Source: Minisyncoccota bacterium (GTDB lineage: Bacteria; Patescibacteriota; Minisyncoccia; Phycocordibacterales; UBA9973). From it: a DNA stretch of 64,000 nucleotides. Both the position numbers and the translations under genes were made by a program. The stretch covers positions 14,002 through 78,001 of the forward strand of contig JBAZOQ010000001.1 of the NCBI GenBank assembly GCA_041648595.1, read 5' to 3'. This document shows positions 3,001-37,119 of the stretch, piece by piece (position 1 is the stretch's first letter; every line of letters begins with the position of its first letter). Under the pieces are notes generated by a model. That model did no database searches and was not told where the DNA came from. It saw nothing but the letters and a program-made list of their open reading frames with translations.

Positions 3001-6000
3001 TACATATACAATTACCGATGATGATAGTACTCCAACAATTGCATTTACCACAACCTCAGGAATTGGAGCAGAAAGCGTAACTCCAGTAAGTATTGGAGTA
3101 ACTCTTTCAGCAGTTTCTGGATTAGATACAACTGTTGCCTATACTCTAACAGGTACAGCCACAGGAAGTGGAACAGACTATACATTAGCAAGTGGAACAG
3201 CAACAATTACAGCTGGACAAACCACTACAAGTATTTCTCTGGTTATTATAGACGATATACTTAGTGAAGTTAGCGAAACTGCTATCTTAACATTATCCAG
3301 TTCAACTAATTCAACTCTCGGAGTTAACACAACTTATACCTATACAATTACAGACAACGACACTGATCCTACAGTAGCATTCACGGCAGCTTCTTCAAAT
3401 GGATTAGAAAGTGTAACTCCAGTAAATCTTGAAGTTTCTATAGCAGCAGCTTCTTCTAAAAACATAACAGTTGGTTATGCAGTTACCGGAGGTACTGCAA
3501 CTTCAGGTGTTGACTATATTCTTGCTTCAGGAACAGCAACAATTACTGCAGGACAAACTACAACAAATATTTCACTCACTGTCATAAATGATACTCTTAA
3601 GGAATCAAATGAAACTGTAATTGTAACTTTATCTACTCCTTCAAATGCAACTTTGGGAACAAATACAGCTCATACTTATACCATTACAGATAATGACACT
3701 TTTCCAACATTAAGTTTCAACGCTACAACAAGTCAAAGTAATGAAGACGTTAACACTGTAGATATTCCTGTATCTATTACATCTATATATCCAGAAAATG
3801 TAACTTTCTCTTATGCTGTTACAAGTGGTACAGCTACAGGTGGATCAGTTGATTATTTACTAGAAAATGGAACAGGTACAATTACAGCAGGTCAAACATC
3901 TACAAATATTCATATAACTGTTTTTGATGATGAGATTTCTGAAAATACAGAAACAATCGTAATAACTATTTCAAATCCAACGAATGCTACTCTTGGAGCT
4001 AATACAATTCATGCTTACTCTATCTTAGATAATGAAATAGCTGTTACAGCAGCAAGTGGTAGTAATATTAAATCAACAAGTGCTCGTATTGTTTGGACGA
4101 CAGCTGATTACACTGATAGTACTATAGAATATGGTACAGTAGCTCCTCCTGGTACAGAAGGGTCTTTGCCATATACTTTGTCTAAGTCAAATTCAGAGAA
4201 AGTATTATCTCATAATATTTATTTAGGAAATTTAACTCCTTCTACAACTTATTATTATAAATTAACTTCAGTTAATTTAGCAGAAGAAACAACAATTTAC
4301 GAATCAGAATTTACAACTACTCCTGGACCTATTATTAGTAATGTTACATCAAGTGGTGCTACTGATATAGGAGTTGTTATCACTTGGACTTCAAATATTC
4401 CTACAACATCTTATGTTAGTTATTCTACTGATGTAGACTTAGCAAGTCCTACATTATCTTCTGTTTCAGAAGAATTAGTTACCGAACATACTGTTACTTT
4501 AACAGGATTAAATTCTGATAGCACTTATTATTATTTAGTGTATGGAGTAGATGCAGATACAAATGTAGGTGAAGATGCAAATGGTGGCAGTTATTATAAT
4601 TTTGCAACAGGGGCAGATCAAACAGCTCCCGTGATTACAGGAGAGATTACTACACCTATCATTACTGCGACTCAAGCTGCTATTTTATGGACAACTAATG
4701 AAGTTGCAAATGGTAAGGTTATGTATGGAACAAGTGCTGATACTTATGATGATGAAACAGATTTGATATCAACACCATTATTAAATCACATAGCGATCAT
4801 TAGTGATTTAACAGCTACGACAAAATATTATTATGTAGTTGTGTCAGCTGATGCAAACGGTAATACCGTAACATCTGATGAAAAAGAATTAACAACAGCT
4901 GAAGTTGAGCAAGTAATTGTAAGTAGCGGTGGAGGTGGTGGAGGTGGAATTATTGGTGTTGCTCAAGAAATTTATAATCTTTTGCTTGCTGAGAATCAAA
5001 AATATATAGCTAAATTTGGTAGTGATACTAATATCCCGGTTATTACAAATATTAAAGTTGATAGTATTACTGCTTTTGGTGCAATTATTTCGTATGAAAC
5101 AAGTGAAGATACAATATCATTTATTGAATATGGTAAAGATACAGATTACGGTTTTATAGCAGCAGATAAAAATTGGTCAAAAAATCATATAATAAAGGTG
5201 AAAGGATTAAATTTAGGTACAGAATATGATTTTAAAATTAGTGCAATGGATAGAACAAATGATTTTGGTTTTTCTGATAATCAGACCTTCACCACTAAAT
5301 TCTTAAGTGAAGATCTTGCTGAATTAAAAAAGATAGAAAACATAGAACAATTCCAAGCAGAAATAGAAGCAACGATAGAATCAATACTTCCATCTCTTGT
5401 TCCACCATTTATTGATAAACCAGTCGTATCTGATATTACAGAGAGTAGTGCAACAGTAACATTCCGTACAAACATTAAATCTTACCCAGTATTAAGTTAT
5501 ACAACTGATGCTAATTATGATAAAACAAAGACTAATCCATATGATGGAGAAATGTCAGATACTTCAGAAAAAAGTGTTTCTCATACAATGTCTCTTATTG
5601 GATTAAAATCTAATACAAAATATCACGTAATGGCAAAAGCATATTCCTTACCTCAAGTTATTGGTAAATCGGAAGACTTTACATTTATAACAGCTGCTTC
5701 AAAGATTCAGGGATCTATTGTTGATGTTAAGAAAGATATGTTTACAGTTATGTGGACTACAGATGAACCTACTTCTTCTATTATTGAATACAAAAATATG
5801 AAAACTGGAAGAATTTCTCGTACTATTGATGATGTTCAAAATAATTCTCATTCAGTAAGAATTGAAAATCTTTCTCCTGGAACTTCTTATCAGGTTAATA
5901 TTTCAGGTATTAACCAAAAAGGTAATACAGTAGAAAGTGGTTCTTCGTTAAATGTTAAGACATCTACCGACAATACTGCACCAGAAATTTTTAATTTGAA

Positions 6001-9589: not shown

Positions 9590-11509
9590 ATGGATTTAAA
9601 ACACATACGAAACTTTTCTATCATCGCACATATTGATCATGGTAAAAGTACTTTGGCGGATAGAATGTTAGAAATTACACATACTATTCCTGAGCGTAAA
9701 ATGCGTGATCAAGTACTTGATTCTATGGATCTTGAACGTGAACGTGGAATTACTATTAAAATGCAACCAGTTAGGATGGTCTATCGACCAAAATTTCCAA
9801 TTTCCAATTTCCAATTTCCAATCAATGATCCAATTTCTAATGAAAATTCTAAATTAAAAATTGAAAATTCAAATTCAGAATACATTCTGAATTTGATTGA
9901 CACCCCAGGGCATATAGACTTTTCTTATGAAGTTTCTCGAGCATTAAAAGCAGTAGAGGGCTCTATTTTATTAGTTGATGCGACACAGGGAGTACAAGCT
10001 CAAACTCTTACTACACTTAATATGGCACGTGAGGGAGCCAAAGAAGGGGGCAAACAAATTATTCCAGTACTTTCAAAGATTGATTCACCACTTGCTCGAG
10101 TAGAAGAAGTAAAAAGGGAGGTTATAGAACTCTTAGGTTGTAATTCTGACGAAATATTGATGGTTTCTGGACGTACGGGTGAAGGAGTAGAAAATCTTTT
10201 AAATGAAATAATAAAACGTATTCCACCACCAGTTGAAAGTTATCCACAAGGTGATAATATTTTACGTGCTCTTGTTTTTGATTTTAAATATTCTAATCAC
10301 AAAGGGGTTATAGTTTTTATTAGATTATTAGATGGAAAAGTAAAAAAGGGTGATAATTTACTTTTTTCAGTTTCAGGTGAAAAATTTTGTGCTCTGGAAG
10401 TTGGTACTTTTTCTCCAGAAGAAACACCAAGAGATTTTCTTTTTGCAGGAGATACGGGTTATATTGTTACAGGCATAAAAAGACCAGGTATTGCTTCTGT
10501 TGGAGATACTATTACAAAAGAAAAAAATCCATTACCTGCATTACCTGGATATATGCAACCAATGCCTGTTGTTTGGGCATCTGTTTTTCCAGAAGATGCT
10601 GATGATTTTTTAGAACTGAAATTATCTTTAGGAAAATTAAAATTATCTGATTCATCTTTTTCATACGAAGAAGAATCAAGTGGTTCACTAGGGCGAGGAT
10701 TTAGATGTGGTTTTCTTGGAATGCTGCATTTAGAGATTATCACAGAAAGATTAAGACGAGAATTTAATTTAGAGCTTGTTATAACTACTCCATCTATTAC
10801 TTATGAAGTATTATTGAGAAACCCTTCGACAGGCTCAGGGCAAGCTGGAAAAAGAGTAAAAATTTATTTTCCTTACTTTTTTCCTGAAGATGGAAATATA
10901 GATACAGTATTTGAACCTTGGGTAAAATTGAAAATAATTACTCCAATCAAATATATAGGCAATATTATGCAAATTCTTTTTGACCATGAAGCTGAAATTG
11001 GTGAGACAGATAATTTTGGCAATAATCGTTCTTCTGTATCTGTTAAAATGCCACTTCGTGAACTTATGCGTAATTTTTTCGATGAATTGAAAAGTGTTTC
11101 ATCTGGATATGGATCTATTTCTTATGAAATAGATGAAATGCGTAAAGCAAATGTTACTAGACTTGATGTGTTAGTCGCTGAAGAAGTGGTTCCTGCATTT
11201 TGTAGAGTTGTTTCAAAAAAAAGGGCAGAAGAAGAAGCAGAAAAAATAGTTGAAAAATTACATGATATTTTACCAAGACAAATGTTTGTTACTAAAATTC
11301 AGGGTAAAGTGTTAGGACGCATAGTATCATCTCGTACATTGCAGGCATTTAGTAAAGATGTGACTCAACATATGTATGGTGGAGACGTTACTCGTAAAAA
11401 TAAACTTCGAGATAAACAAAAGAAAGGAAAAAAGAAAATGAAAGAACGTGGAAAAGTGAATATTCCACATAGTGTATTTTTGAAAATGATGCGTGGAGGA
11501 AATGATTAA
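9590..11509 (+). CDS. lepA: Translation elongation factor 4 (LepA). It carries an in-frame (AATTTCC)n low-complexity insertion and an in-frame GC-rich REP-like insertion.
   Basis: N-terminus MDLKHIRNFSIIAHIDHGKSTLADR, NLIDTPGHIDF, and the LepA-specific C-terminal domain. Length 639 aa. Confidence 0.9.
   Translation: MDLKHIRNFSIIAHIDHGKSTLADRMLEITHTIPERKMRDQVLDSMDLERERGITIKMQPVRMVYRPKFPISNFQFPINDPISNENSKLKIENSNSEYILNLIDTPGHIDFSYEVSRALKAVEGSILLVDATQGVQAQTLTTLNMAREGAKEGGKQIIPVLSKIDSPLARVEEVKREVIELLGCNSDEILMVSGRTGEGVENLLNEIIKRIPPPVESYPQGDNILRALVFDFKYSNHKGVIVFIRLLDGKVKKGDNLLFSVSGEKFCALEVGTFSPEETPRDFLFAGDTGYIVTGIKRPGIASVGDTITKEKNPLPALPGYMQPMPVVWASVFPEDADDFLELKLSLGKLKLSDSSFSYEEESSGSLGRGFRCGFLGMLHLEIITERLRREFNLELVITTPSITYEVLLRNPSTGSGQAGKRVKIYFPYFFPEDGNIDTVFEPWVKLKIITPIKYIGNIMQILFDHEAEIGETDNFGNNRSSVSVKMPLRELMRNFFDELKSVSSGYGSISYEIDEMRKANVTRLDVLVAEEVVPAFCRVVSKKRAEEEAEKIVEKLHDILPRQMFVTKIQGKVLGRIVSSRTLQAFSKDVTQHMYGGDVTRKNKLRDKQKKGKKKMKERGKVNIPHSVFLKMMRGGND
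9792..9819 (+). repeat. Perfect heptanucleotide tandem repeat (AATTTCC)x4 inside the lepA coding sequence, followed by degenerate AAATTC-like repeats to about 9890. It is translated as PISNFQFPINDPISNENSKLKIENSNSE.
   Basis: Seen directly. The segment lies between the G1 and G3 (DTPGH) motifs, where canonical LepA has no such segment. Confidence 0.8.
10821..10848 (+). repeat. GC-rich REP-like element (family B: CCTTCGACAGGCTCAGGGCAAGC) inserted in frame in lepA. It is translated as NPSTGSGQAGK.
   Basis: A roughly 25-nt island of about 65% GC in an about 30% GC gene. The same motif occurs in eno (x2) and valS (x2). Confidence 0.7.
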
Positions 11510-14462: not shown

Positions 14463-15807
14463 AATTACGAAAATTATTGCAGAAGAAATAAAAGATTCGC
14501 GTGGTAATCCGACTATTAAAGTTACAGTATTTGCTTGCCCGCCTTTGGAGGGTGCAGAATATGTATTTGATAGTTTTTCTGTACCTTCTGGTGCATCTAC
14601 TGGAGCCCATGAAGCACATGAGTTAAGAGACCCCGAACCAGAGCAAGCTCGGTACGGGGCAGGTGATAATGGAAAAGGTGGTATGAAGAAGGCTATTTGG
14701 AATGTAGAAAATATTATTGCACCAGCTTTAATTGGTAAAGATATTTTAAATCAAAAAGAAATTGATAGAATAATGATTGAATTAGATGGAACTGCCAATA
14801 AAGATAATTTAGGAGGTAACTCTATGATAGGTGTAAGTATTGCTTGTGCAAAGACAGCTGCGAAAGTGTCTAATGTGGAAATATTTGAACATTTACGTAC
14901 TTTAATGGAGATAAAACCATCCCTTCGACTAGGCTCAGGGCAAGCTAAGAGGATTCCACATCTTTATATGAATTTGATAAATGGAGGAAAGCATGTCCTT
15001 CGACAAGGCTCAGGGCAAGCAAAGAATGATTTAGTTTTTCAGGAATATCACGTTGTCCCAAATACAGAAGATGCAGTAGAAGCAGTTGAAATTGGAATTA
15101 AAATACAAAATTCTCTTAAAGAAATAATTTTAAAAGAACTAGGAGAAGAGTCTCTTGTATTAGGTGATGAAGGAGGTTTTGCTCCTAAGATAAGTGATAT
15201 TAGAAAACCACTTGAATATTTAAGTAAAGCAATAAAAGAAAATAATTTAGAAGATAAAGTTAGGCTCGCGCTCGATGTAGCTAGTTCTTCTTTTTATAAA
15301 GATGGAAAATATAAAGTTGATGGTAAAGACCCCAAAGGAAAGCAAGCTTCCTACGGGGCAGGAATTTCAAAAGAAGAATTAATGGATATTTATAATTCTT
15401 TAATTACAGAATTTAATTTACTTTCTATTGAAGATCCATTTGATGAAGAAGATTTTGAAAGCTTTAGAAAATTAAAAGAAAATCAAAATAATTTAATAGT
15501 GGTAGGAGATGATTTAACTGTGACAAATAAAGTTCTTTTAAAAGAAGCAATTGAGAAAAATAGTATAAATGCAATGATTATAAAACCAAACCAAATAGGC
15601 ACTTTGACAGAGACACTTGAAACGATGCAATTGGCTCGCTTAAATGGTGTAGAGCTCATAGTCAGCCACAGGAGTGGAGAAACTGAGGATAGTTTTATAG
15701 CTGATTTAGCATATGCTTTTGGATGTTTTGGTCTTAAATCAGGGGCTCCAGAAAAATCTGAAAGAAAAGTAAAATATGATAGGTTAATAAAAATTTCTAA
15801 AATATAG
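14452..15807 (+). CDS. eno: Enolase (phosphopyruvate hydratase) carrying four in-frame GC-rich repeat-element insertions.
   Basis: SGASTGAHEAHELRD, catalytic VGDDLTVTN, IKPNQIGTLTET, SHRSGETED. Inserted segments are PEPEQARYGAG, SLRLGSGQAKR, LRQGSGQAKN and GKQASYGAG. Confidence 0.9.
   Translation: MENKITKIIAEEIKDSRGNPTIKVTVFACPPLEGAEYVFDSFSVPSGASTGAHEAHELRDPEPEQARYGAGDNGKGGMKKAIWNVENIIAPALIGKDILNQKEIDRIMIELDGTANKDNLGGNSMIGVSIACAKTAAKVSNVEIFEHLRTLMEIKPSLRLGSGQAKRIPHLYMNLINGGKHVLRQGSGQAKNDLVFQEYHVVPNTEDAVEAVEIGIKIQNSLKEIILKELGEESLVLGDEGGFAPKISDIRKPLEYLSKAIKENNLEDKVRLALDVASSSFYKDGKYKVDGKDPKGKQASYGAGISKEELMDIYNSLITEFNLLSIEDPFDEEDFESFRKLKENQNNLIVVGDDLTVTNKVLLKEAIEKNSINAMIIKPNQIGTLTETLETMQLARLNGVELIVSHRSGETEDSFIADLAYAFGCFGLKSGAPEKSERKVKYDRLIKISKI
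14631..14663 (+). repeat. GC-rich element family C (CCCCGAACCAGAGCAAGCTCGGTACGGGGCAGG, near-palindromic CCCCG..CGGGG), in frame in eno. Second copy at 15330-15362.
   Basis: Two copies share CCCCRAA..AGCAAGCT..TACGGGGCAGG. Both translate to ..QA(R/S)YGAG. Confidence 0.65.
14925..14949 (+). repeat. GC-rich element family B copy in eno (CCTTCGACTAGGCTCAGGGCAAGC). Another copy at 15000-15024.
   Basis: Same motif as in lepA and valS. Translated as PSLRLGSGQAK and LRQGSGQAK. Confidence 0.7.
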
Positions 15808-19036: not shown

Positions 19037-19059
19037 TTGCGGAAGCAAGACTTCCGCAA
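19037..19059 (+). repeat. REP-1 palindrome TTGCGGAAGCAAGACTTCCGCAA, immediately upstream of tRNA-Gly.
   Basis: Same palindrome family as the three copies around and inside the RAYT gene at 36.3-37.1 kb. Confidence 0.75.
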
Positions 19060-23140: not shown

Positions 23141-23851
23141 TTAATTTTCTACTTCCATTCTTCTTAGTTTTTCAAAAAGTAATATAATAATAATTGTAAC
23201 GACCCAAAGAAAACCTAGTACTCTTAAAAAATAGTTTCCATTATCTTCCATTATAAAAAAATTAAAGGTACTATGCAAGACTATAGCTAATATTATACCC
23301 CCTAAAAGATATAATTTTTTTACAAATTTACCCATAAAAAACGAAAGTCCTAAAGCTATTCCTATGGTACCTGTTGAAACAGCATGGAGTAGCGTAGATC
23401 CTAAAAACCTGAGTTGACCTGTGAGTAGGCCTACCGTAGTTTGGTTAAGTGAGAATGGTTCTATTAGAAACATTGTATTTTCAAGAGCTGCGAATCCTAA
23501 TGCCACAGTAATTAAAAAAATAGGCCAATCTATCGGTTCATCTATACGATTTGTTTTAGAAAGAAGAATTACTACACATAAATATTTTATTAATTCTTCT
23601 ACACTTGCCCAGCCAATAATTTGCCACTCATATGAACTTACAGTATTTTGTATAAATTTTTGGATTGGTATAACAAAAATAACAGAAATCATACCAACAA
23701 AAAACAAAGAAGCAATGAGTCCTTTTGGTTCAGGATTTAAATTGTCTTCTTTTAACCAAAACCAAAGCCAAAGAAGGGCAGGAATAACACCACCTAAAAG
23801 TGCTAAAAATAAAATTTTTGGATCAGTTGTCATTGGGTTTACCCTGAGCAA
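23141..23851 (-). CDS. Polytopic membrane protein, putative PrsW-family intramembrane protease.
   Basis: Multiple TM helices with EELIKY (E-E-x-x-K), FAALENTMF and LLHAVSTG / HSTFNF His motifs resembling PrsW signatures. Confidence 0.45.
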   Translation of the reverse strand: MLRVNPMTTDPKILFLALLGGVIPALLWLWFWLKEDNLNPEPKGLIASLFFVGMISVIFVIPIQKFIQNTVSSYEWQIIGWASVEELIKYLCVVILLSKTNRIDEPIDWPIFLITVALGFAALENTMFLIEPFSLNQTTVGLLTGQLRFLGSTLLHAVSTGTIGIALGLSFFMGKFVKKLYLLGGIILAIVLHSTFNFFIMEDNGNYFLRVLGFLWVVTIIIILLFEKLRRMEVEN

Positions 23852-26027
23852 AGTCGAAGGGCCATTTTTCTACTAATAAAAGTTTTTTGTCTTTTTGTAG
23901 TGGCATCATGGACCATATTTCTTCTGTGATGAATGGTATAAAAGGATGAAGAGCTTTAAGAAGTGTAGTGAGTTGTGAAAGTAATAATACTCGTGCTGAA
24001 ATAGTATTTTTGTTTTCGAGAATTTTTTTCTTTGAACGTTCAATTATTATATCAGCAAAAGTGTGCCAGAAATAATGATAAAGTTTCTCGGCTACAATGT
24101 AGAATTTATATTCGTCCATTTCCTTTGTAATTTCTGTTATTAAATTCTGTAATTCTTTTTCTGATTTTTTATCTTCTTCATCAAGTTCTGTTTCTTTTGT
24201 TGAATCAAAGTCTTTTGTGTTTTCTAATACGAAACGTGCAGCATTCCAGATTTTATTGGTAAATTTGCTGTATGCTTTAACTTTTTGAATATCAAATTTA
24301 CTATCTGCTCCAGGACCTATACCCACAATCATTGACATGCGGAGAGCGTCTGCCCCATATTCATTGATAACTTCTATTGGGTCAATACCATTACCTAGAG
24401 ATTTACTAAATTTTTGTCCTTTCGCATCTCTGAGTATTCCATGAAGATATACCACTTTAAAAGGAATTTCTCCTATTAAATATTGGGACATTAAAATCAT
24501 ACGTGCCACCCAGAAGAATAAAATTTCATAACCAGGATTAATGACACTCGTAGGATGATATGTTTCTAAGTCACTTCCTTTTTTTGGTTTACCATGAGCG
24601 TAGTCGAATGGCCATCCAAGTGTAGAAAAAGTCCAAAGTCCAGAAGAAAACCAAGTATCCAGAGTATCTTCATCTTGAATCCAACCTTCACCCTCTGGTG
24701 TTTCAATTCCACAATATACTTCTTTGTTTTTATACCAAACTGGGATTCTATGTCCATACCAAATTTGTCGTGATATACACCAATCGCGTAGATTTTCTAT
24801 CCAGTTGAAATAAACTTTTTCAAAGTGGTCTGGTAGAATATTTATTTTATTATCTCGTACCGGCTCGAGCATTAATTCTTTAAGTGTTTTATTTCCTCGA
24901 GAGGAGATTTTTTTATTTACATCAATGAACCACTGGAGCATTATTTGTGGTTCTATTATTCCACCAGTTCGTTCAGCCGTCGCAATTCTATTTATATAAT
25001 TTTCATCAATAGAAACAAGTAATCCTTTTGTTTTTAATTTTTCAACAATTTTTTCTCGAGCATCTAAGATTTTCATGCCGGCAAATTCTCCTGCGATGGG
25101 TAAAAGTTTGCTGTATTTATCAATAATTTGTTCTTTGTCTAATTTGTATTTTTCTGCCAATACGAAGTCTTCATGGGAGTGCCAAGGAGTAATGGTCATA
25201 ACCCCAGTGCCGAATTCCATATCGATTATCTCATCCTTGATTATAGTGGCTTCTATTGGGCCATTTATCCATTCTACGGTTAATTTATCGCCATGTTTCC
25301 ATTTACTGTATCTTTCATCTTTTGGATGCATTACGACGTATTTATCACCAAATTTTGTTTCTGGACGAGCGGTACCTATTTCGAAAGGCCCATATTTAAA
25401 AGTATAGAATTTACTCTTTTTTTCTTCATAAACTAACTCATCATCAGATATGACTGTTTGACCCTTTGGATCCCAGTTTACTATTCTATGACCTCTATAA
25501 ATTAAACCGTCGTCGTACATTTTTTTGAAAACAGTGCGAACCGCTAAATTCCTTTTTTCATCAAAAGTAAAAGCTTCTCGTGACCAATCAAGAGATGCAC
25601 CAACTTTACGCAATTGACTTACTATTGTTTTGCGACTATCTGCAACAAATGTGTTTACTCGTTCTAAGAATTTTTCTCGCCCAATATCTTTTTTCTTTAA
25701 TCCTTCTTTTTCTAGAATTTTTGTTATTTTAGAATCTGTTGCAATTGCTGCATGGTCGGTGCCAGGAAGCCAAAGAGTTTTTTCTCCGCGCATACGGTGG
25801 TAACGTATCATTGTATCTTGCATTGAATCTTCAAGCACATGACCTAAATGTAAGACACCAGTGGCATTTGGAGGGGGGAGAACGATAGAAAATTTTGGAG
25901 CATCTTTTTTAATTATGCCTTTCTCAATACATATGTCTGGATTAAAAAAACCGCTCTCTTCCCAGAGTTTATAAATTTTATCTTCTATTTCTTTTGGGTC
26001 GTAGGGTTTTAGCAATCTTTCATCCAT
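23823..26027 (-). CDS. valS: Valyl-tRNA synthetase (class I, HIGH = PPPNATGVLHLGH, KMSKS = KFSKSLGN). Two in-frame GC-rich element insertions (WPFDFAQGKP at the extreme C-terminus and WPFDYAHGKP internally).
   Basis: N-terminus YDPKEIEDKIYKLWEESGFF and catalytic motifs. Length 734 aa (C-terminal coiled-coil domain absent). Confidence 0.85.
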   Translation of the reverse strand: MDERLLKPYDPKEIEDKIYKLWEESGFFNPDICIEKGIIKKDAPKFSIVLPPPNATGVLHLGHVLEDSMQDTMIRYHRMRGEKTLWLPGTDHAAIATDSKITKILEKEGLKKKDIGREKFLERVNTFVADSRKTIVSQLRKVGASLDWSREAFTFDEKRNLAVRTVFKKMYDDGLIYRGHRIVNWDPKGQTVISDDELVYEEKKSKFYTFKYGPFEIGTARPETKFGDKYVVMHPKDERYSKWKHGDKLTVEWINGPIEATIIKDEIIDMEFGTGVMTITPWHSHEDFVLAEKYKLDKEQIIDKYSKLLPIAGEFAGMKILDAREKIVEKLKTKGLLVSIDENYINRIATAERTGGIIEPQIMLQWFIDVNKKISSRGNKTLKELMLEPVRDNKINILPDHFEKVYFNWIENLRDWCISRQIWYGHRIPVWYKNKEVYCGIETPEGEGWIQDEDTLDTWFSSGLWTFSTLGWPFDYAHGKPKKGSDLETYHPTSVINPGYEILFFWVARMILMSQYLIGEIPFKVVYLHGILRDAKGQKFSKSLGNGIDPIEVINEYGADALRMSMIVGIGPGADSKFDIQKVKAYSKFTNKIWNAARFVLENTKDFDSTKETELDEEDKKSEKELQNLITEITKEMDEYKFYIVAEKLYHYFWHTFADIIIERSKKKILENKNTISARVLLLSQLTTLLKALHPFIPFITEEIWSMMPLQKDKKLLLVEKWPFDFAQGKPNDN
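23836..23864 (-). repeat. GC-rich element family B variant (TGGCCCTTCGACTTTGCTCAGGGTAAACC on the minus strand) at the valS 3' end. Second copy at 24587-24615.
   Basis: Both translate to WPFD(F/Y)A(Q/H)GKP. Same CCTTCGAC..GCTCAGGG core as the lepA and eno copies, but read in a different frame. Confidence 0.65.
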
Positions 26028-26067
26028 ATTTAAATAATATCATAAAATAAAAGGGTTTTCTACCTAC

Positions 26068-26176
26068 AAAAAAGACAAAACATCTTTTAAAAAGCATTGC
26101 GCAGGCTGACGAGCCGAGCATAGCAAATTTTCAGCAGAAAATTATGTGCGGTTTTTAAAAGATGTTTTGTCTTTTT
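26068..26176. mobile_element. Hairpin / MITE-like element. Perfect 24-25-bp inverted repeat AAAAGACAAAACATCTTTTAAAAAG ... CTTTTTAAAAGATGTTTTGTCTTTT flanking a 58-nt core containing the GC-rich motif CGCAGGCTGACGAGCCGAG. Located in the valS-tsaD intergenic region.
   Basis: Read directly. The core motif recurs inside tsaD at 26683-26702 and in degenerate form upstream of tRNA-Ser (about 28990-29015). Confidence 0.65.
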
Positions 26177-26179
26177 TTG

Positions 26180-27382
26180 TTAGAGGCTAAGGTTTCCTTT
26201 GGCCTTTATGCTCGAGATTTTTGGTACTTTTTTCTTATTTTTTATAAATTGTAGATATCCAGCTACACCTATCATTATTGAATTATCTCCTGTTAATTTT
26301 TTTTCTGGGAAAAGTAATATAGTATTTTTTTCTACAATTTTTTTCATTTGTCTTTGTAAATGTTCATTACAAGATACACCACCAGCTACTATGATTGTTT
26401 TTGCTTTATATTTTTCTTTTGCTTTAATTGTTTTATAAATAAGAGTTTCTACTACAGCATTTTCAAATTCTAGTGCAATAGCTTGTTTTATTTTTTCATT
26501 TTGCCCGCCTGCCTCGTTATGCGAAGCATTTCGGGCAGGTAATATATTAGGATTTTCTTTTTTAAGGTCACGTATTAAATAAAGTACTGCAGTTTTTAAT
26601 CCTGAAAATGAAAAATCAAAATTTTTACTGTAGAGCATAGGGCGGGGAAGAGCGAAGGAAAAACAATCTTTGTGGGGTGTCTCGCAGGCTGACGAGCCGA
26701 GAGGCAGCGCTCCGCGAGCACGCGGAGACAGCGACCCCAGAAAGATTGGTTTTTCTGTAGCTCTTTTTTTTTCAGCTAATTTTGAAATTTCTGGTCCTCC
26801 TGGATAAGGCAGATCCATCATTCTAGCTACTTTGTCATATGCTTCTCCTGCAGCATCATCTAATGTTTGACCAATGATTTTGTATTGTAGCCAATTTTTT
26901 GAGAGTACAAGCTCTGTGTGCCCACCAGAAACGAGAAGAGATAAAATAGGGAATTCTATTTTAGGAATTGTAAAACTACCCTTGCTTTTAGCAAATACAG
27001 ATACTATATGTCCTTCCATGTGATTAACTGGTATAAGTGGTACATCCCATTTTTCTGCAAGTTCTTTTGCAAAAACTATTCCACTCCAAAGTGAAGGTTC
27101 TAGCCCTGGTCCATAAGTGACTGCTATTAGATCAACTGGTTTTTCTTTTTTAGCTAATTTGGATTTTTTAAGAGCTTTTTCTAATAGTATTGGTAAATTT
27201 TTTATATGTTCACGTTTTGCGAGCATAGGGAATACTCCACCATAAGGAGTATGAATTGCTATTTGTGAATTTGAAAAATTAGATAAAATATTAAATGAAG
27301 CAAAACCATTTTTATTGAGATTTGCATCCATTATTGTTATGGCTGTATCGTCACAGCTAGTTTCTATACTTAATATTTTCAT
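26180..27382 (-). CDS. tsaD: tRNA N6-adenosine threonylcarbamoyltransferase TsaD (Kae1/Gcp family) with a roughly 35-aa in-frame GC-rich insertion.
   Basis: MKILSIETSCDDTAITI, NHMEGHI, SGGHTELV, VAGGVSCN. The inserted segment is GSLSPRARGALPLGSSACETPHKDCFSFALPRP. Confidence 0.85.
   Translation of the reverse strand: MKILSIETSCDDTAITIMDANLNKNGFASFNILSNFSNSQIAIHTPYGGVFPMLAKREHIKNLPILLEKALKKSKLAKKEKPVDLIAVTYGPGLEPSLWSGIVFAKELAEKWDVPLIPVNHMEGHIVSVFAKSKGSFTIPKIEFPILSLLVSGGHTELVLSKNWLQYKIIGQTLDDAAGEAYDKVARMMDLPYPGGPEISKLAEKKRATEKPIFLGSLSPRARGALPLGSSACETPHKDCFSFALPRPMLYSKNFDFSFSGLKTAVLYLIRDLKKENPNILPARNASHNEAGGQNEKIKQAIALEFENAVVETLIYKTIKAKEKYKAKTIIVAGGVSCNEHLQRQMKKIVEKNTILLFPEKKLTGDNSIMIGVAGYLQFIKNKKKVPKISSIKAKGNLSL
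26638..26750 (-). repeat. GC-rich palindromic element of about 110 bp (family D core CGCAGGCTGACGAGCCGAG flanked by imperfect inverted repeats CAATCTTTGTGGGGTGTC / GACAGCGACCCCAGAAAGATTG) inserted in frame in tsaD.
   Basis: GC content far above the surrounding coding sequence. Shares its core with the intergenic element at 26097-26116. Confidence 0.65.
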
Positions 27383-27383
27383 G

Positions 27384-27457
27384 TGGGCGGTACAAGACTC
27401 GAACTTGTTGCCTCGTCGACGTCAACGACGCGCTCTAACCAAATGAGCTAACCGCCC
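27384..27457 (-). tRNA. tRNA-Val (anticodon GAC).
   Basis: The reverse complement folds as GGGCGGT acceptor, GCTC/GAGC D stem, anticodon loop TTGACGT, T arm ACAAG-TTCGAGT-CTTGT. Confidence 0.75.
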
Positions 27458-27466
27458 AAACTGTAA

Positions 27467-28213
27467 TTATACAGCGAACTTTTCTAATATTTCAAGTTCT
27501 TCTTTTGTGTTTGCTCCTAATGCTTCATGAGATTCTATTTGTATGGCTTCCACTTTTTTTCCTTCTTTTGAGGCTAAGTGAAGGAGATCTGTTAAATAAT
27601 ATTCATTCTGTATATTATTATTTTTTACTTTTTCTAAATTTTTCCAAAGCCATTTTGCATCAAAAGCATAACTTCCAGCATTTACTTCTTTTATTAATTT
27701 TTCTTTTTCATTAGCATCTTTGTATTCACGAATGCCTGTAATTTTCCCATCTTTTCTTAAAATTCTTCCAAAAGCAAGAAATCCTTTTCTCCAGTCTTTA
27801 AAATCTGACACTTCCGTCGTTGTAAATGTTATTTTAGTTTTTGCTTTTAGGTGTTTTTTTAATAAATTTTTTAATGTTTCTGAAGATATTAAAGGTTGGT
27901 CTCCAGATAAGACGATTATATGTTTTGCGTCATTACAATATTCTCTTGCACAAAATACAGCATGTCCAGTACCTAGTTGTTCTTCTTGTATTGCATAAAA
28001 ACAAGAATCTTTAAGTTCGGATTCCACTAATTCTTTATTATGTCCTATTATTGCTATCGGTTTTTGGTTGAATGCTTTTTTTGCTGATTTTAAAATGTAT
28101 TTTATCATTGGTTTACCGTTTAGTTTCAATAAAATTTTTGGCAAATCACTCTGCATTCTTTTACCTTTTCCTGCTGCTAATATTATTATTTTTATATCTT
28201 TTAAATTTTCCAT
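27467..28213 (-). CDS. Sugar-phosphate nucleotidyltransferase (GlmU N-terminal-domain-like, UDP-GlcNAc pyrophosphorylase-type).
   Basis: IIILAAGKGKRMQSDLPKILLKLNGKPMIKYIL matches the LAAGKGTRM nucleotidyltransferase signature. At 248 aa it lacks the acetyltransferase hexapeptide-repeat domain. Confidence 0.65.
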   Translation of the reverse strand: MENLKDIKIIILAAGKGKRMQSDLPKILLKLNGKPMIKYILKSAKKAFNQKPIAIIGHNKELVESELKDSCFYAIQEEQLGTGHAVFCAREYCNDAKHIIVLSGDQPLISSETLKNLLKKHLKAKTKITFTTTEVSDFKDWRKGFLAFGRILRKDGKITGIREYKDANEKEKLIKEVNAGSYAFDAKWLWKNLEKVKNNNIQNEYYLTDLLHLASKEGKKVEAIQIESHEALGANTKEELEILEKFAV

Positions 28214-28407
28214 AAAAATAAGCCCGAAGGCTTTATATTGAATATATTAGCATTTTATTTAAAATTTGACGAGTTTTTTGTAAAACAAACAAAAGGTAAA
28301 TAAGTTGATTAAATATGAAGAATTTATGAAGGATATTTGGTGATATTAGTAAAATATGTTATGGTATTTTTAGAAACGTTATTTATTAATTTTTTTGGGA
28401 GAAAACA

Positions 28408-28671
28408 ATGGAGTTTAACTTATTACGAAAAATTTCAGCTTATACAGTTGGGATTTTTATTTTTATAAAAATATTTTTTGATTCTTATTTTTGGAGTATC
28501 TGGATATATTTTAAATATATCCAAAAGGATTATAAAAAATTACAAGACAGAAAAATAAAAAAATTAGAGAATATATCTAATAAGTCACATATTTTTGCTT
28601 TTATATTATTTATTTTAGCAATAATTCTTTGGTGGGAAGTTTTGGTTTATTATGCGACACCAGCTTCCTGA
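28408..28671 (+). CDS. Hypothetical small membrane protein (87 aa).
   Basis: Two predicted TM helices. No recognisable motif. Confidence 0.3.
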   Translation: MEFNLLRKISAYTVGIFIFIKIFFDSYFWSIWIYFKYIQKDYKKLQDRKIKKLENISNKSHIFAFILFILAIILWWEVLVYYATPAS

Positions 28672-28712
28672 TATCGATTTTAAGTCTCGTCATTGCGACG
28701 GGGCTTTTTTAT

Positions 28713-28787
28713 TGGTGACCCTACCGGGAGTCGGACCCGGATTTAGTGCTTGAAAAGCACTCGTCCTAACCGTTAGACGATAGGGCC
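28713..28787 (-). tRNA. tRNA-Glu (anticodon UUC), CCA encoded.
   Basis: Reverse complement GGCCCTATCGTCTAACGGTTAGGACGAGTGCTTTTCAAGCACTAAATCCGGGTCCGACTCCCGGTAGGGTCACCA. Confidence 0.8.
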
Positions 28788-29018
28788 TATATAGTACATG
28801 TTATATTATTTTTGAAAAAACTGCAAAAAATGTTAGATTACATATTAGATAGGGTATAAGATAATGATGACGAACGTAGTATGGAGACGTGGGTATTAAG
28901 TATGAACTGCTTCATATTTAATCTGATTCTGCTTTTGCAGAAATGTCTAATATGCTTTAGCATGAAGACATAGGGAAGGGTCCGAGAGGGCACGAAGCCA
29001 TGGCGACGAGCATAGCGA

Positions 29019-29103
29019 GGAGACGTGGGTGAGTGGTTGAAACCACCGCTCTCGAAAAGCGGCATACCGCAAGGTATCGGAGGTTCAAATCCTCCCGTCT
29101 CCG
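29019..29103 (+). tRNA. tRNA-Ser (anticodon CGA) with a long variable arm.
   Basis: Acceptor GGAGACG/CGTCTCC, anticodon loop CTCGAAA, variable arm ATACC-GCAA-GGTAT, T arm GGAGG-TTCAAAT-CCTCC, discriminator G. Confidence 0.75.
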
Positions 29104-29107
29104 CAAA

Positions 29108-29150
29108 AGAAAAACCCGATGCACGTTTGTTTGTGTAAAGGGTTTTTTTT
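29108..29150 (+). terminator. Possible rho-independent terminator after tRNA-Ser (AAAAACCC ... GGGTTTTTTTT).
   Basis: Stem AAAACCC/GGGTTTT with a large loop, followed by a T run. Confidence 0.35.
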
Positions 29151-29460
29151 AAATCTGTTTTTTCTTTAAAGGTTTTTTATTTAAAAACCAATAAAGAAAA
29201 ATAAAAAACAAGATACTAACTCCAACGCCCAATATTTCTAAAATTGGTAGTAAATTAGAAATTATTATTTCTAGATAACTTCCAATTAAGATAGTCATTA
29301 TAGTATAAAAGATAATATGATCTTTTCTGTAAAAAATAATTTTTGTTTTAAGGTAAACAATAATTATTTTTATAAAAGAATAATCACCTTTACAGCTAAC
29401 ATTTTTATCTTCTATCCTAACAAAAGGGCTTGGAAGACTGTCATACTCTTCTTTTGTCAT
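29149..29460 (-). CDS. Hypothetical membrane protein (103 aa).
   Basis: ORF with predicted TM helices. No motif. Confidence 0.3.
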   Translation of the reverse strand: MTKEEYDSLPSPFVRIEDKNVSCKGDYSFIKIIIVYLKTKIIFYRKDHIIFYTIMTILIGSYLEIIISNLLPILEILGVGVSILFFIFLYWFLNKKPLKKKQI

Positions 29461-36325: not shown

Positions 36326-36347
36326 TTGCGGAAGCAAGGCTTCCGCA
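36326..36347 (+). repeat. REP-1 palindrome TTGCGGAAGCAAGGCTTCCGCA, immediately upstream of the RAYT gene.
   Basis: Perfect 9-bp arms GCGGAAGC/GCTTCCGC around CAAGG. Confidence 0.75.
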
Positions 36348-36361
36348 GTACTATAGTTAGT

Positions 36362-37063
36362 ATGGCGTATAGAAAAGCATCTTTTGTAGAAGGAGAATTT
36401 TATCATATTTATAATAGAGGAAATAGTAAACAAAAAATATTTTTAGATAATCATGATTATGATCGTTTTATAAAATTATTATATCTTTGTAATTCAGAAT
36501 ATAGTATTGATTTTCGTGAAGATATAGTAAGACAGGGAATTAATGCTTGGGATTTTGATCGTGGTGAATCTATAGTTTCAATAGGTGCATGGGTATTAAT
36601 GCCAAATCATTTTCATTTATATTTAAATATAAATCCGCGGAAGCAAGGCTTCCGCAAAGTTCGTATTAATGAAATTACAGAATTTATGCACAAACTTTTG
36701 ACATCTTATTCGAAGTATTTTAATACAAAATATAAACGTACAGGAGGATTATTTGAAGGTAAATTTAAATCAGTTCATATAGAGGATGATAATCAAGCAA
36801 AATATCTTTTTTCTTATATTCATTTGAATCCAGTCAAACTTATAGATAGTAAATGGAAAGAAAATGGAATAAAAAATAAAAAACAAACAAAAGATTTTTT
36901 GAATAAATATATATGGTCAAGTTATTTAGATTATAAAGGAATTACTCGTTCCCCAAATAAAATTTTAAATAAAAAGGCATTTCCAGAATACTTTCGTAAT
37001 ATGAAAGATTTTGATTTTGAAATAGGGGAGTGGCTTAATTTTTCGGATTCTGACTTAAATTAA
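36362..37063 (+). CDS. IS200/IS605-family HUH Y1 transposase, REP-associated tyrosine transposase (RAYT)-like. It contains an in-frame REP-1 copy (PRKQGFRK).
   Basis: N-terminal FVEGEFYHIYNRGN, HUH motif MPNHFHLYL, catalytic Tyr region KYLFSYIHLNPVK. Flanked on both sides by REP-1 palindromes. ATG 36362 is preferred over the track's TTG start at 36326, which lies inside the REP. Confidence 0.75.
   Translation: MAYRKASFVEGEFYHIYNRGNSKQKIFLDNHDYDRFIKLLYLCNSEYSIDFREDIVRQGINAWDFDRGESIVSIGAWVLMPNHFHLYLNINPRKQGFRKVRINEITEFMHKLLTSYSKYFNTKYKRTGGLFEGKFKSVHIEDDNQAKYLFSYIHLNPVKLIDSKWKENGIKNKKQTKDFLNKYIWSSYLDYKGITRSPNKILNKKAFPEYFRNMKDFDFEIGEWLNFSDSDLN
36635..36657 (+). repeat. REP-1 palindrome CCGCGGAAGCAAGGCTTCCGCAA inserted in frame within the RAYT gene.
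   Basis: Translated as NPRKQGFRKV directly after the HUH motif. Confidence 0.7.
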
Positions 37064-37096: not shown

Positions 37097-37119
37097 TTGC
37101 GGAAGCCAGGCTTCCGCAA
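37097..37119 (+). repeat. REP-1 palindrome TTGCGGAAGCCAGGCTTCCGCAA, immediately downstream of the RAYT gene.
   Basis: Read directly. Confidence 0.75.

What the first reader, a model, noticed from the sequence alone, without database searches (positions are those of the whole stretch)
26068..26750. A palindromic GC-rich core (CGCAGGCTGACGAGCCGAG) exists both as an intergenic perfect-IR element and as an in-frame roughly 35-aa insertion in tsaD
At 26068-26176 a perfect 24-25-bp inverted repeat (AAAAGACAAAACATCTTTTAAAAAG) flanks a 58-nt core containing the motif. Inside tsaD (26638-26750) the same core, flanked by imperfect inverted repeats (CAATCTTTGTGGGGTGTC / GACAGCGACCCCAGAAAGATTG), is translated as GSLSPRARGALPLGSSACETPHKDCFSFALPRP in an otherwise conserved Kae1/TsaD. 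A degenerate copy (GACGAGCATAGCGAGG) lies upstream of tRNA-Ser. This shows that the same element family colonises both spacers and coding sequence.
Basis: seen in the sequence. Interest (0 to 1): 0.65.

Follow-up and report, generated by a model that had tools for sequence, protein, structure and literature searches.

The report
T-shaped palindromic repeat inside genes
A roughly 80-100-base hairpin element with a conserved three-armed core is scattered through the genomes of many tiny Patescibacteria, between genes and in-frame inside essential genes such as tsaD, where it is read as protein in either orientation; it resembles the "protein-coding palindromes" otherwise known mainly from Rickettsia.

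Summary
The 19-mer CGCAGGCTGACGAGCCGAG occurs exactly twice (26100, 26683; none expected). Copy A lies between a perfect 26-bp inverted repeat in the tsaD-valS spacer. Copy B is a 99-nt (33-codon) hairpin in-frame in tsaD, absent from six aligned orthologues and from solved TsaD structures.

The claimed third copy upstream of tRNA-Ser is not detected.

The two copies belong to a large family. The 19-mer has at least 120 exact hits in one-genome-per-species contigs, 118 of them in Patescibacteria. Every family copy folds as a three-way junction:
- a site-specific outer stem;
- hairpin P2, with G(C)A/GA flanks and a GACG loop;
- a 7-bp hairpin P3, with an AGCA loop and an invariant A after it.

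P2 and P3 covary fully and show almost no G-U pairs.

About 40% of copies lie in long ORFs of housekeeping genes (UvrD, Tgt, TsaD, Fmt, Dus, UvrB, RecG and others). They use only stop-free frames, and both orientations occur at the same site. Filled and empty sites exist for both window positions.

My best reading is a DNA-level selfish palindromic repeat, analogous to Rickettsia palindromic elements but unrelated in sequence. It is tolerated in protein loops and probably acts as a terminator-like hairpin in spacers. I cannot explain why the core stays conserved in place. No Rfam family matches and I found no published report.

The parts
26068..26177 (+). Element A, the whole hairpin in the tsaD-valS spacer. 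It has perfect 26-bp arms (26068-26093 and 26152-26177) around a 58-nt core. Pairing continues imperfectly out to about 26061-26185 and covers the tsaD stop codon.
   Evidence: The RNA fold has z = -7.0. The covariance model scores 87.7 bits. The site is empty in L121, L122 and L104.
26084..26161 (+). Probable transposed unit of element A (subfamily T1). It runs from CTTTT to AAAAG and contains the inner P1 stem, P2 and P3.
   Evidence: Family-wide conservation begins and ends at these runs. Copies from a single MAG share the unit but not the outer stems.
26098..26120 (+). P2 of element A. P2a pairs 26098-26100 with 26118-26120. The internal loop is GCA/GA. P2b is GGCT (26104-26107) with AGCC (26112-26115). 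The loop is GACG (26108-26111).
   Evidence: RNAalifold and pair counts. P2b covaries in copies with variant cores.
26126..26144 (+). P3 of element A. The stem is AATTTTC (26126-26132) with GAAAATT (26137-26143). The loop is AGCA (26133-26136). The invariant A is at 26144.
26657..26755 (+). Element B, the whole hairpin inserted in-frame in tsaD (subfamily T2). It is 99 nt, or 33 codons. The core points along the + strand, antisense to the tsaD mRNA.
   Evidence: The covariance model scores 86.7 bits. The site is empty in L122, L123 and L124. The element is flipped in L121.
26681..26703 (+). P2 of element B. The 19-mer is at 26683-26701. P2b is GGCT (26687-26690) with AGCC (26695-26698). The loop is GACG.
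26710..26728 (+). P3 of element B. The stem is CTCCGCG (26710-26716) with CGCGGAG (26721-26727). The loop is AGCA (26717-26720). The invariant A is at 26728. All seven pairs differ from those of element A, and all are compensated.
26180..27382 (-). Host gene tsaD (400 aa). The insertion occupies residues 210-242.
   Evidence: The AF2 model gives pLDDT 25-30 with no secondary structure across the insert.
26034..26062 (-). Promoter-like site for valS (TAGAAA-17-TATTAT with an upstream TG). It sits directly beside the left end of element A. The same TAGAAAACCC...TATGATATTAT block follows the tsaD stop codon in relatives with an empty site.

Best explanation
The two copies are members of a widespread, non-autonomous palindromic repeat family of Patescibacteria, mainly the Paceibacteria/Parcubacteria group. 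The repeated unit is about 75-80 nt. It is bounded by CTTTT...AAAAG and folds into a T- or Y-shaped three-way junction. I think it propagates and is maintained at the DNA level.

Shown:
- Copies with an identical unit sit at different loci, each with its own outer stem.
- Orthologous sites can be filled, empty, or filled by other hairpin elements.
- The element occurs in both orientations at the same site.
- Helices are kept strictly Watson-Crick.

Inferred:
- The unit lands in, or creates, a local inverted repeat. This can be a terminator hairpin after a stop codon, or a short A-run/T-run quasi-palindrome in a coding loop.
- Replication template switching (quasi-palindrome correction) then perfects and extends the site-specific outer stem. 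The same process keeps the arms complementary.
- Recombination or template switching between the arms flips the element.

In genes, only copies that preserve the reading frame, avoid stop codons and sit in permissive surface loops survive. These are translated as a disordered 30-45-aa loop. That explains the GC-rich, stop-free 'coding' subfamily seen in tsaD.

In spacers, as with element A between the tsaD stop codon and the valS promoter, the A-run/hairpin/T-run probably also works as a bidirectional terminator-like structure.
For: Family size and range:
- At least 120 exact 19-mer hits, 118 of them in Patescibacteria and each with the full architecture.
- No hits in viral contigs.

Structure:
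- 93.2% of cells are paired, against 60.5% in shuffles and at most 54% in slid controls.
- P2a, P2b and P3 change only by double compensatory substitutions.
- G-T plus A-C pairs make up under 1% of P3.

Mobility and turnover:
- L031, L052 and L061 come from one MAG. They share an identical unit but have different outer stems.
- The tsaD loop is empty in L122, L123 and L124, filled in 10 species, and filled by an unrelated palindrome in L125.
- The tsaD-valS spacer is empty in L121, L122 and L104. It holds element A in the window and different hairpins in L078 and L125, although the flanks are nearly identical.

Flipping:
- The same 97-nt hairpin lies in the opposite orientation in L121/P0019, and in P0044 and P0117.
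- Both orientations also occur at one site in UvrD, Tgt and Fmt.

Translation:
- 53 of 123 copies are spanned by long ORFs.
- Only the five stop-free frames of the core are used. LGSSAC (20 copies) and QADEP (17 copies) are the dominant, flip-related pair.
- The GC-rich subfamily T2 lies in ORFs in 35 of 42 copies. For T1 the figure is 8 of 39.

Inverted copy of the flank:
- The empty site reads GAAAAACAATCGCCTTTTTC.
- The filled site reads GAAAAACAATC[unit]GATTAGTTTTTC.

Published support for the template-switching step:
- Template switching that creates perfect hairpins in a single event is documented (PMC10710096).
Against: - No transposase, target-site duplication or autonomous parent element was found. 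Terminal conservation covers only about 5 nt.
- At orthologous tsaD sites the core is far better conserved than the surrounding codons. P2b changes by compensatory pairs that alter the peptide. A dead selfish insert should decay instead. Explaining this needs gene conversion from other copies, repeated re-insertion, or a host-level function.
- The conserved purine-purine flanks (G(C)A/GA), the GACG and AGCA loops and the invariant A look like the signature of a folded single strand recognised by a protein. They could also mark a catalytic RNA.
- G-T exceeds A-C among mismatches in the outer stem: 25 against 4 by one count, 63 against 35 by another. This hints at a strand-specific single-stranded form.
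- Spacer copies are oriented against transcription more often than with it, 22 against 8.
Confidence: 0.55

Rival explanations
1. It is a functional structured RNA. It could be a protein-binding or processing module, or a small ribozyme. The host keeps it, and it is embedded in spacers and even in coding regions.
For: - The three-way junction has very strong covariation.
- Unpaired nucleotides are conserved: the G(C)A/GA flanks, the GACG and AGCA loops, and the invariant A.
- In tsaD orthologues the core is conserved while the peptide changes.
- The sense strand folds more stably than the antisense strand: -57.3 against -46.2 kcal/mol for element B.
- G-T outnumbers A-C in the outer stem.
Against: - Both orientations occur at the same site in four host genes. 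In the window, both copies are antisense to the mRNA.
- Spacer copies lie mostly antisense to the flanking genes.
- G-U pairs are almost absent from P2 and P3, which is atypical of functional RNAs.
- No Rfam family matches, including the ribozyme models, even at E<=10.
- The hammerhead-like CUGACGA has no matching GAAA/helix III arrangement.
Confidence: 0.2
2. It is an intron-like or bypassed element. The hairpin would be removed from the mRNA or skipped by the ribosome, so that TsaD is made without the extra loop.
For: - The insert is a very stable hairpin within an essential gene.
- Structure, rather than peptide, is conserved among orthologues.
- From my own knowledge: GC-rich bypass elements exist in AT-rich yeast mitochondrial genes.
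Against: - Every coding copy keeps the reading frame and lacks stop codons.
- The one core frame that contains TGA is never used.
- A stop-free GC-rich subfamily is enriched in ORFs.
- Both orientations are found in intact ORFs. Removal that depends on sequence or structure could not work on both.
Confidence: 0.05
3. It is a peptide module under protein-level selection. The inserted loop would itself be the functional unit in nucleic-acid enzymes.
For: - The hosts are mostly tRNA-modifying, aminoacylation and DNA-repair enzymes.
- The peptide LPLGSSACETP recurs.
Against: - The same nucleotides occur in non-coding spacers.
- Flipping produces an unrelated peptide at the same site.
- P2b covariation changes the peptide.
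- The insert is predicted to be disordered, with pLDDT 25-30.
- Orthologues without the insert exist.
Confidence: 0.04
4. It is a purely local event. Copy A and copy B, 583 nt apart, would share the 19-mer through a local duplication or gene conversion, or by chance, and there would be no family.
For: The two copies lie close together, and exact sequence identity between them covers only the 19-mer and a few flanking bases.
Against: - Chance is excluded.
- More than 100 copies lie at unrelated loci in more than 80 other assemblies.
- The tsaD copy is orthologous across species that lack the spacer copy.
Confidence: 0.01
5. It is a DNA-level signal used by the host rather than a selfish element. 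It could be a DNA-uptake sequence, or a binding site for a nucleoid, replication or recombination protein, kept conserved by its receptor.
For: - An exact short core is conserved across many genera, in coding and non-coding DNA, and often within terminator-like inverted repeats.
- From my own knowledge, this pattern resembles the uptake sequences of Neisseria and Haemophilus.
- In-place conservation would be explained.
Against: - Density is low, at 2 copies in 64 kb.
- Uptake sequences do not require a covarying three-way junction.
- Presence/absence varies between close relatives.
Confidence: 0.08

Closest known systems
Rickettsia palindromic elements (RPEs; Ogata et al. 2000 and 2002, as summarised in PMC10969869)
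   Same: - Both are palindromic repeats of about 100-150 bp.
- Both are found between genes and in-frame inside unrelated housekeeping genes, where they are read as an extra peptide.
- Orthologous insertions are shared by related species.
- Both are regarded as selfish DNA that protein loops can tolerate.
   Different: - The host phylum is different.
- I neither tested nor expect sequence relatedness.
- Here the conserved part is a central three-way junction and the outer stems are site-specific, rather than the whole element being conserved.
- The core is conserved across a class-level clade.
- The same site carries the element in both orientations.
Bacterial MITEs and terminator-like repeats (Correia, ERIC, BOX, RUP, SPRITE; PMC10969869, PMC3184786)
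   Same: - They are short, non-autonomous, hairpin-forming repeats.
- They are often transcribed with neighbouring genes.
- Some resemble or act as terminators.
- Some make in-frame fusions.
   Different: - MITEs have conserved terminal inverted repeats and target-site duplications, and share their ends with a parent IS.
- Here only about 5 terminal nt are conserved.
- Two filled/empty comparisons show no direct duplication.
- No parent element was found.
REP/REPIN elements mobilised by RAYT transposases (PMC3733652)
   Same: - They are GC-rich imperfect palindromes in many copies.
- They are thought to act as single-stranded hairpins.
- The CGTC tetranucleotide that tags one REP superfamily is the complement of the conserved GACG loop.
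   Different: - REPs are extragenic, 20-40 bp simple hairpins with the tag at one end, and are conserved within a species.
- This element is a 75-100-nt three-way junction with the tag in a loop.
- It is frequent inside ORFs.
- It is conserved across many genera.
GC clusters and translational-bypass elements of AT-rich yeast mitochondrial genomes; coding palindromes in Nematomorpha mitochondrial genes (PMC6649704)
   Same: - They are GC-rich or perfectly palindromic inserts that invade both spacers and protein-coding genes of AT-rich compact genomes.
- In the Nematomorpha case both arms are translated.
   Different: - They occur in organelles and have no conserved three-way-junction core.
- Bypass elements are not translated, whereas these copies keep an open frame.
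T-shaped terminal hairpins of parvoviruses (AAV ITR, with flip and flop forms)
   Same: - From my own knowledge: a long stem carries two small internal hairpins.
- It exists in two inverted configurations.
   Different: - Those hairpins are the ends of linear viral DNA, processed by a Rep nickase.
- These elements are internal chromosomal repeats.
- No Rep-like gene is known to accompany them.
- The resemblance is one of shape only.

Membership tests
Rickettsia palindromic elements (RPE) | Palindromic repeat present in many copies, both between genes and in-frame in protein-coding genes | tested here: met
Rickettsia palindromic elements (RPE) | Sequence homology to one of the RPE consensus families, and occurrence in Rickettsia | not tested
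   No RPE consensus sequences were available in the tools. All hits here are in Patescibacteria. I therefore file this as an analogue, not a member.
MITE | Conserved terminal inverted repeats shared by all copies | tested here: inconclusive
   Only CTTTT/AAAAG (about 5 nt) plus subfamily-specific inner stems are conserved. The outer stems differ at every locus.
MITE | Direct target-site duplication | tested here: not met
   The two filled/empty comparisons (tsaD loop, tsaD-valS spacer) show no direct duplication. The tsaD site shows an inverted copy of the left flank instead.
MITE | A parent autonomous IS with the same ends | not tested
   None was seen in the 8-kb loci. L094 is a truncated copy and L101 carries a 57-nt nested insert. 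No systematic search was possible.
REP / REPIN-RAYT | Extragenic 20-40-bp palindrome with a GTAG or CGTC head | tested here: not met
   The element is a 75-100-nt three-way junction. 53 of 123 copies lie in ORFs. CGTC occurs only as the complement of the P2b loop.
REP / REPIN-RAYT | A RAYT (Y1 transposase) gene in the genome | not tested
   Only 64 kb of the source genome was available.
Any Rfam RNA family, including hammerhead, twister, pistol and hatchet ribozymes | A match to the family's covariance model | tested here: not met
   There is no match at gathering score over the window. At E<=10 over 25900-29200 there are only chance miRNA-hairpin hits.
Hammerhead ribozyme | CUGANGA ... helix II ... 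GAAA ... helix III ... cleavage-site core | tested here: not met
   CUGACGA is present, but it lies inside P2b. No GAAA/helix III arrangement follows (read directly from the sequence).
Intrinsic (rho-independent) terminator | A stable hairpin directly followed by a U-run downstream of a gene | tested here: inconclusive
   Element A starts 2 nt after the tsaD stop codon and is flanked by A7 and T7. The simple scan calls no terminator because the 'loop' is 58 nt.
Intron / intein / bypass element | Removal of the insert from the mRNA or the protein | not testable with these tools
   The only indirect evidence argues against removal: frames stay open and both orientations occur.

The most novel reading that the evidence does not exclude
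The conserved three-way-junction core could be the recognition module of an undescribed mobility or maintenance system specific to Patescibacteria.

- It may work through a single-stranded DNA or RNA intermediate.
- It may target hairpin loops or short quasi-palindromes, build a site-specific stem by copying the flank in inverted orientation, and flip in place inside essential genes.
- Alternatively, the core could be a new functional RNA or ribozyme class that the cell cannot afford to lose.

Either reading would explain why the core stays invariant at orthologous sites while the surrounding codons, and even the encoded peptide, change.
Probability: 0.3. Interest if true: 0.8.

Novelty: new variant of a known kind. 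Interest (0 to 1): 0.66.

Why it matters
- Protein-coding palindromic repeats have been treated as a peculiarity of Rickettsia. A second, unrelated and much more widely distributed case in the Candidate Phyla Radiation would show that reduced, AT-rich genomes repeatedly tolerate hairpin elements inside essential genes.
- It gives a concrete explanation for many odd GC-rich, low-complexity loops in Patescibacteria proteins. It also warns against reading those loops as lineage-specific protein features.
- The filled, empty and flipped alleles at tsaD, uvrD and tgt are natural experiments on how palindromes are born, perfected and inverted in bacterial genomes.
- The covariance model built here would let the family be masked or annotated in MAGs.
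- If the conserved core turns out to have a partner protein or catalytic activity, it would be a new RNA or DNA element class in a group of organisms with very few characterised non-coding elements.

Tried and rejected
- **Rfam.** Scans at gathering score and at E<=10 gave nothing beyond tRNAs and chance miRNA-like hairpin hits.
- **Hammerhead reading of CUGACGAG.** Rejected by inspection, because there is no GAAA/helix III arrangement.
- **K-turn reading of the GA/GA flanks.** Rejected, because there is no 3-nt bulge.
- **Third copy at tRNA-Ser.** Rejected by the covariance-model search with filters off.
- **Peptide searches for host range.** A 46-aa query joining both orientations found only 3 weak hits. 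A full HMMER scan of 1.84 billion representatives with the 33-aa insert found only 5 hits. Short, variable peptides are a poor handle, so I took host range from the DNA loci instead.
- **Viral contigs.** The 19-mer has no hit, so there is no sign of a phage vector.
- **A conserved neighbouring gene for the 'extended' subfamily** (GTCGCAGGCGTAC...GTATGCCAAGAAAG). Its flanking genes differ between loci, so the extension belongs to the element and not to a host RNA or gene.
- **An autonomous parent.** L094 is a truncated copy. L101 carries a 57-nt nested insert in the P3 loop.
- **Strand asymmetry of mismatches.** G-T against A-C gave 25:4 with a greedy stem tracer and 63:35 on model-aligned columns. 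That is too unstable to build on.
- **AF2 model of TsaD.** Quality is only moderate (mean pLDDT 63, 24-sequence alignment). It supports 'disordered loop' only weakly.
- **Literature.** Seven searches found no description of this element in Patescibacteria/CPR. The primary RPE paper (PMC186582) is not held.
Full report
**1. What is in the window**

The window is 30.8% G+C. The 19-mer CGCAGGCTGACGAGCCGAG is exact at 26100-26118 and 26683-26701, both on the + strand. No further match appears with up to 3 mismatches, and none is expected in shuffles.

Copy A lies in the 152-nt spacer between the stop codon of tsaD (26180-27382, minus) and the start of valS (23823-26027, minus).
- Its arms are a perfect 26-bp inverted repeat, 26068-26093 and 26152-26177, around a 58-nt core.
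- The hairpin begins 2 nt from the tsaD stop codon.
- It ends next to a promoter-like site for valS, TAGAAA-17-TATTAT with an upstream TG.

Copy B is a 99-nt hairpin at 26657-26755 inside tsaD.
- It is read as EKPIFLGSLSPRARGALPLGSSACETPHKDCFS.

**2. The tsaD segment is an insertion**

- Solved TsaD structures align to residues 1-205 and 243-380, leaving about 33 residues without a counterpart.
- Among 23 close orthologues, six lack the segment (P0041, P0052, P0078, P0081, P0091, P0100). Most others carry it. Some carry other inserts at the same place.
- At the DNA level, empty sites read, for example, GAAAAACAATCGCCTTTTTC (L123).
- An AF2 model of moderate quality gives the insert pLDDT 25-30 and no secondary structure. 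This fits a tolerated, disordered loop, but the evidence is weak.

**3. The two copies share an architecture as well as the 19-mer**

Both fold as a three-way junction with z-scores of -5 to -7. Each has:
- a long outer stem (P1);
- a hairpin P2 that contains the 19-mer;
- a 7-bp hairpin P3 with an AGCA loop.

The P3 stems are AATTTTC/GAAAATT in A and CTCCGCG/CGCGGAG in B. All seven pairs differ and all are compensated.

**4. It is a large family**

- 118 loci are from Patescibacteria: Nomurabacteria, Zambryskibacteria, Kaiserbacteria, Paceibacterota, Minisyncoccia, and MAGs labelled Saccharibacteria.
- The two hits in GC-rich genomes lack the structure.
- There are no hits in viral contigs.

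An alignment of 118 copies and RNAalifold give this consensus:
- P1 is variable, apart from a CTTTT...AAAAG base and subfamily-specific inner pairs.
- P2a is 3 bp with perfect covariation.
- An internal loop, G(C)A on one strand and GA on the other, follows.
- P2b is 4 bp with a GACG loop.
- P3 is 7 bp with an AGCA loop.
- An invariant A follows P3.

On a model-based alignment of 116 copies, 93.2% of cells pair. Shuffles give 60.5% and slid controls at most 54%.

About 20 further copies have non-canonical cores. In these, P2b covaries while the GACG loop and the GA flanks stay fixed. The observed pairs are GGCU/AGCC, GCGC/GCGC, GGGC/GCCC, GAGC/GCUC, GCAC/GUGC and GGCG/CGCC.

P2 and P3 change only by double substitutions. 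Wobble and A-C pairs are under 1% in P3. That is unusual for a functional RNA. It is expected for a DNA palindrome whose arms are copied from each other.

In the window itself, the covariance model finds only copies A and B. The proposed degenerate copy upstream of tRNA-Ser is not detected.

**5. Coding and non-coding copies**

53 of 123 copies are crossed by a stop-free frame of at least 450 nt.

| Host gene (clustering and Pfam) | Loci |
|---|---|
| UvrD/PcrA helicase | 10 |
| Tgt | 8 |
| TsaD | 6 |
| Fmt | 3 |
| Class-V aminotransferase | 2 |
| Dus | 2 |
| Isoleucyl-type tRNA synthetase | 2 |
| CCA-adding enzyme | 1 |
| UvrB | 1 |
| RecG | 1 |

Five of the six frames of the core are open, and only those five are used. 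The dominant pair is LGSSAC on the antisense strand (20 copies) and QADEP on the sense strand (17 copies). This is the pair expected if an element whose length is a multiple of three is inverted in place.

| Subfamily | Example | Copies in ORFs |
|---|---|---|
| T2, GC-rich | copy B | 35 of 42 |
| T1, AT-rich | copy A | 8 of 39 |
| T3 | - | 4 of 17 |

So the window holds one 'intergenic-type' and one 'coding-type' member.

**6. Flipping**

In P0019, P0044 and P0117 the tsaD loop reads GVSQADGPRGSAP...GDSDPKK. This is the translation of the opposite strand of the window's insert.

The DNA of L121 (P0019) confirms it. It reads GAAAAACAATCTTTGCGGGGTGTCTCGCAGGACGACGGTCCGAG...GACAGCGACCCCGAAAAGATTAGTTTTTC in the tsaD sense strand. 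The whole hairpin is therefore inverted within the same boundaries. It also carries a compensated P2b, GGAC/GUCC.

Both orientations also occur at single sites in UvrD, Tgt and Fmt.

**7. Turnover**

The tsaD-valS spacer:
- It is empty in L121, L122 and L104. In L121 and L122 the stop codon TAG overlaps the conserved TAGAAAACCC block.
- It carries element A in the window.
- It carries different long AT-stemmed hairpins with unrelated GC-rich cores in L078 and L125.
- L078 is the closest relative, and its downstream flank is identical to the window's over 47 nt.
- The outermost 14 bp of the stems of the window and L078 look homologous and differ by compensated changes. This suggests an older terminator hairpin whose interior was replaced.

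The tsaD loop:
- L125 carries yet another palindrome at the same position.

Copies within one genome:
- Three copies from one MAG (L031, L052, L061) share an identical unit of about 75 nt, CTTTTAAATACG...TATTTAAAAG, but have different outer stems.
- L048 (UvrD) and L049 (Tgt), also from one MAG, share the same P3 variant.

These observations indicate a mobile or convertible unit of about 75-80 nt whose outermost stem is made or found at each site.

At tsaD, the left arm GAAAAACAATC is native sequence that is also present in the empty site. The right arm GATT(A/G)GTTTTTC is an inverted copy of it, partly overlapping a native TTTTTC.

**8. In-place conservation**

Across ten tsaD orthologues the core is invariant except in P2b and the loops. 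Five of these orthologues were retrieved without reference to the 19-mer.
- P2b changes by compensating pairs: GGCC/GGCC, GGUC/GGCC and GGAC/GUCC.
- One loop base changes.
- The encoded peptide changes as a result, from LGSSAC to LGPSAC or LGPSTC.
- Meanwhile the flanking tsaD codons diverge freely.
- L078 has a wholesale P3 replacement.

A passively decaying insert does not predict this. It is the main unexplained point.

**9. Interpretation**

I favour a DNA-level selfish palindromic repeat, with confidence about 0.55. It is an analogue of the Rickettsia palindromic elements described in PMC10969869.

Supporting this reading:
- multi-copy units with different flanks;
- filled, empty and replaced sites;
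- both orientations in the same gene;
- strictly Watson-Crick helices;
- a stop-free subfamily enriched in ORFs.

The following steps are inferred, not shown:
- Replication template switching perfects and extends the outer stem. This process is documented to create perfect hairpins in one step (PMC10710096).
- Exchange between the arms inverts the element.
- Selection leaves only frame-preserving copies in permissive loops.
- Element A probably also serves as a terminator-like hairpin between tsaD and the valS promoter.

The main rival is a functional structured RNA or a single-strand recognition module, with confidence about 0.2. The conserved non-paired nucleotides and the in-place conservation keep it alive. 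Orientation data weaken it: both window copies are antisense to the mRNA, and spacer copies run 22 antisense to 8 sense. The near absence of G-U pairs also weakens it.

Removal from the mRNA, or ribosomal bypass, is unlikely because frames are always open in both orientations.

**10. Novelty**

No Rfam family matches. Seven full-text searches found no description of such an element in Patescibacteria/CPR.

The kind of element, a protein-coding palindromic repeat, is known. Four features appear to be new:
- the three-way-junction core with site-specific stems;
- the class-wide conservation of the core;
- the documented flip alleles inside essential genes;
- the coexistence of several hairpin families competing for the same sites.

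Noticed in passing
window 26505-26540 (minus-strand coding): There is a second, unrelated in-frame insertion in tsaD. It is a 36-nt GC-rich hairpin, CCCGCCTGCCTCGTTATGCGAAGCATTTCGGGCAGG, encoding PARNASHNEAGG. Only P0005/L125 shares it. It is absent from L123, L121 and most orthologues, which read ATTTTA|CAAAATGAA at that point. Similar CCTGCC...GGCAGG hairpins sit in the tsaD-valS spacer of L035, L063 and L124.
   Followed up: partly
L078:5925-6105 and L125:1440-1620 (tsaD-valS spacer); L125 tsaD loop: Close relatives carry different long AT-stemmed hairpins with unrelated GC-rich, two-hairpin cores at exactly the spot where the window has element A. L125 also has another palindrome (CCGGTCC...GGGCCGG) in the same tsaD loop. 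Several hairpin-element families therefore seem to compete for the same sites.
   Followed up: partly
window 28883-28894 and 29019-29030: The first 12 nt of tRNA-Ser (GGAGACGTGGGT) are repeated 136 nt upstream. A GC-rich block (28964-29018) lies between the repeats. This may be a remnant of an integration or duplication at the tRNA gene. It is not a member of the element family.
   Followed up: partly
window 19039-19057, 36328-36346, 36637-36655, 37099-37117: A four-copy family of small GC-rich hairpins, GCGGAAGC(A/C)AG(G/A)CTTCCGC.
   Followed up: no
window 10832-10845, 14932-14945, 15007-15020; inverted at 23839-23883: A repeat family containing GGCTCAGGGCAAGC. The inverted copy lies at the 3' end of valS, where it encodes ...WPFDFAQGKP. 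This is another candidate repeat that enters coding sequence.
   Followed up: no
loci L013, L018, L033, L034, L055, L068, L102, L109, L116, L119: In this composite subfamily the three-way-junction unit is nested inside a second conserved shell, GTCGCAGGCGTAC...GTATGCCAAGAAAG. The shell resembles a core whose P2b loop was invaded. It has a further site-specific stem outside it. Flanking genes differ between loci, so the composite is itself dispersed.
   Followed up: partly
L101 (core at 1724, minus) and L094 (core at 6447, minus): L101 has a 57-nt foreign insert in the AGCA loop of P3. L094 is a copy truncated after the 5' strand of P3.
   Followed up: partly
window 2053-3786: Five tandem copies of a unit of about 336 nt (65-76% identity) lie inside a large ORF. 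This is probably a repetitive surface protein.
   Followed up: no
window 27383-27457 / 27382: tRNA-Val (minus strand) ends one base before the tsaD start codon, so tRNA-Val, tsaD and possibly valS are probably co-transcribed.
   Followed up: no
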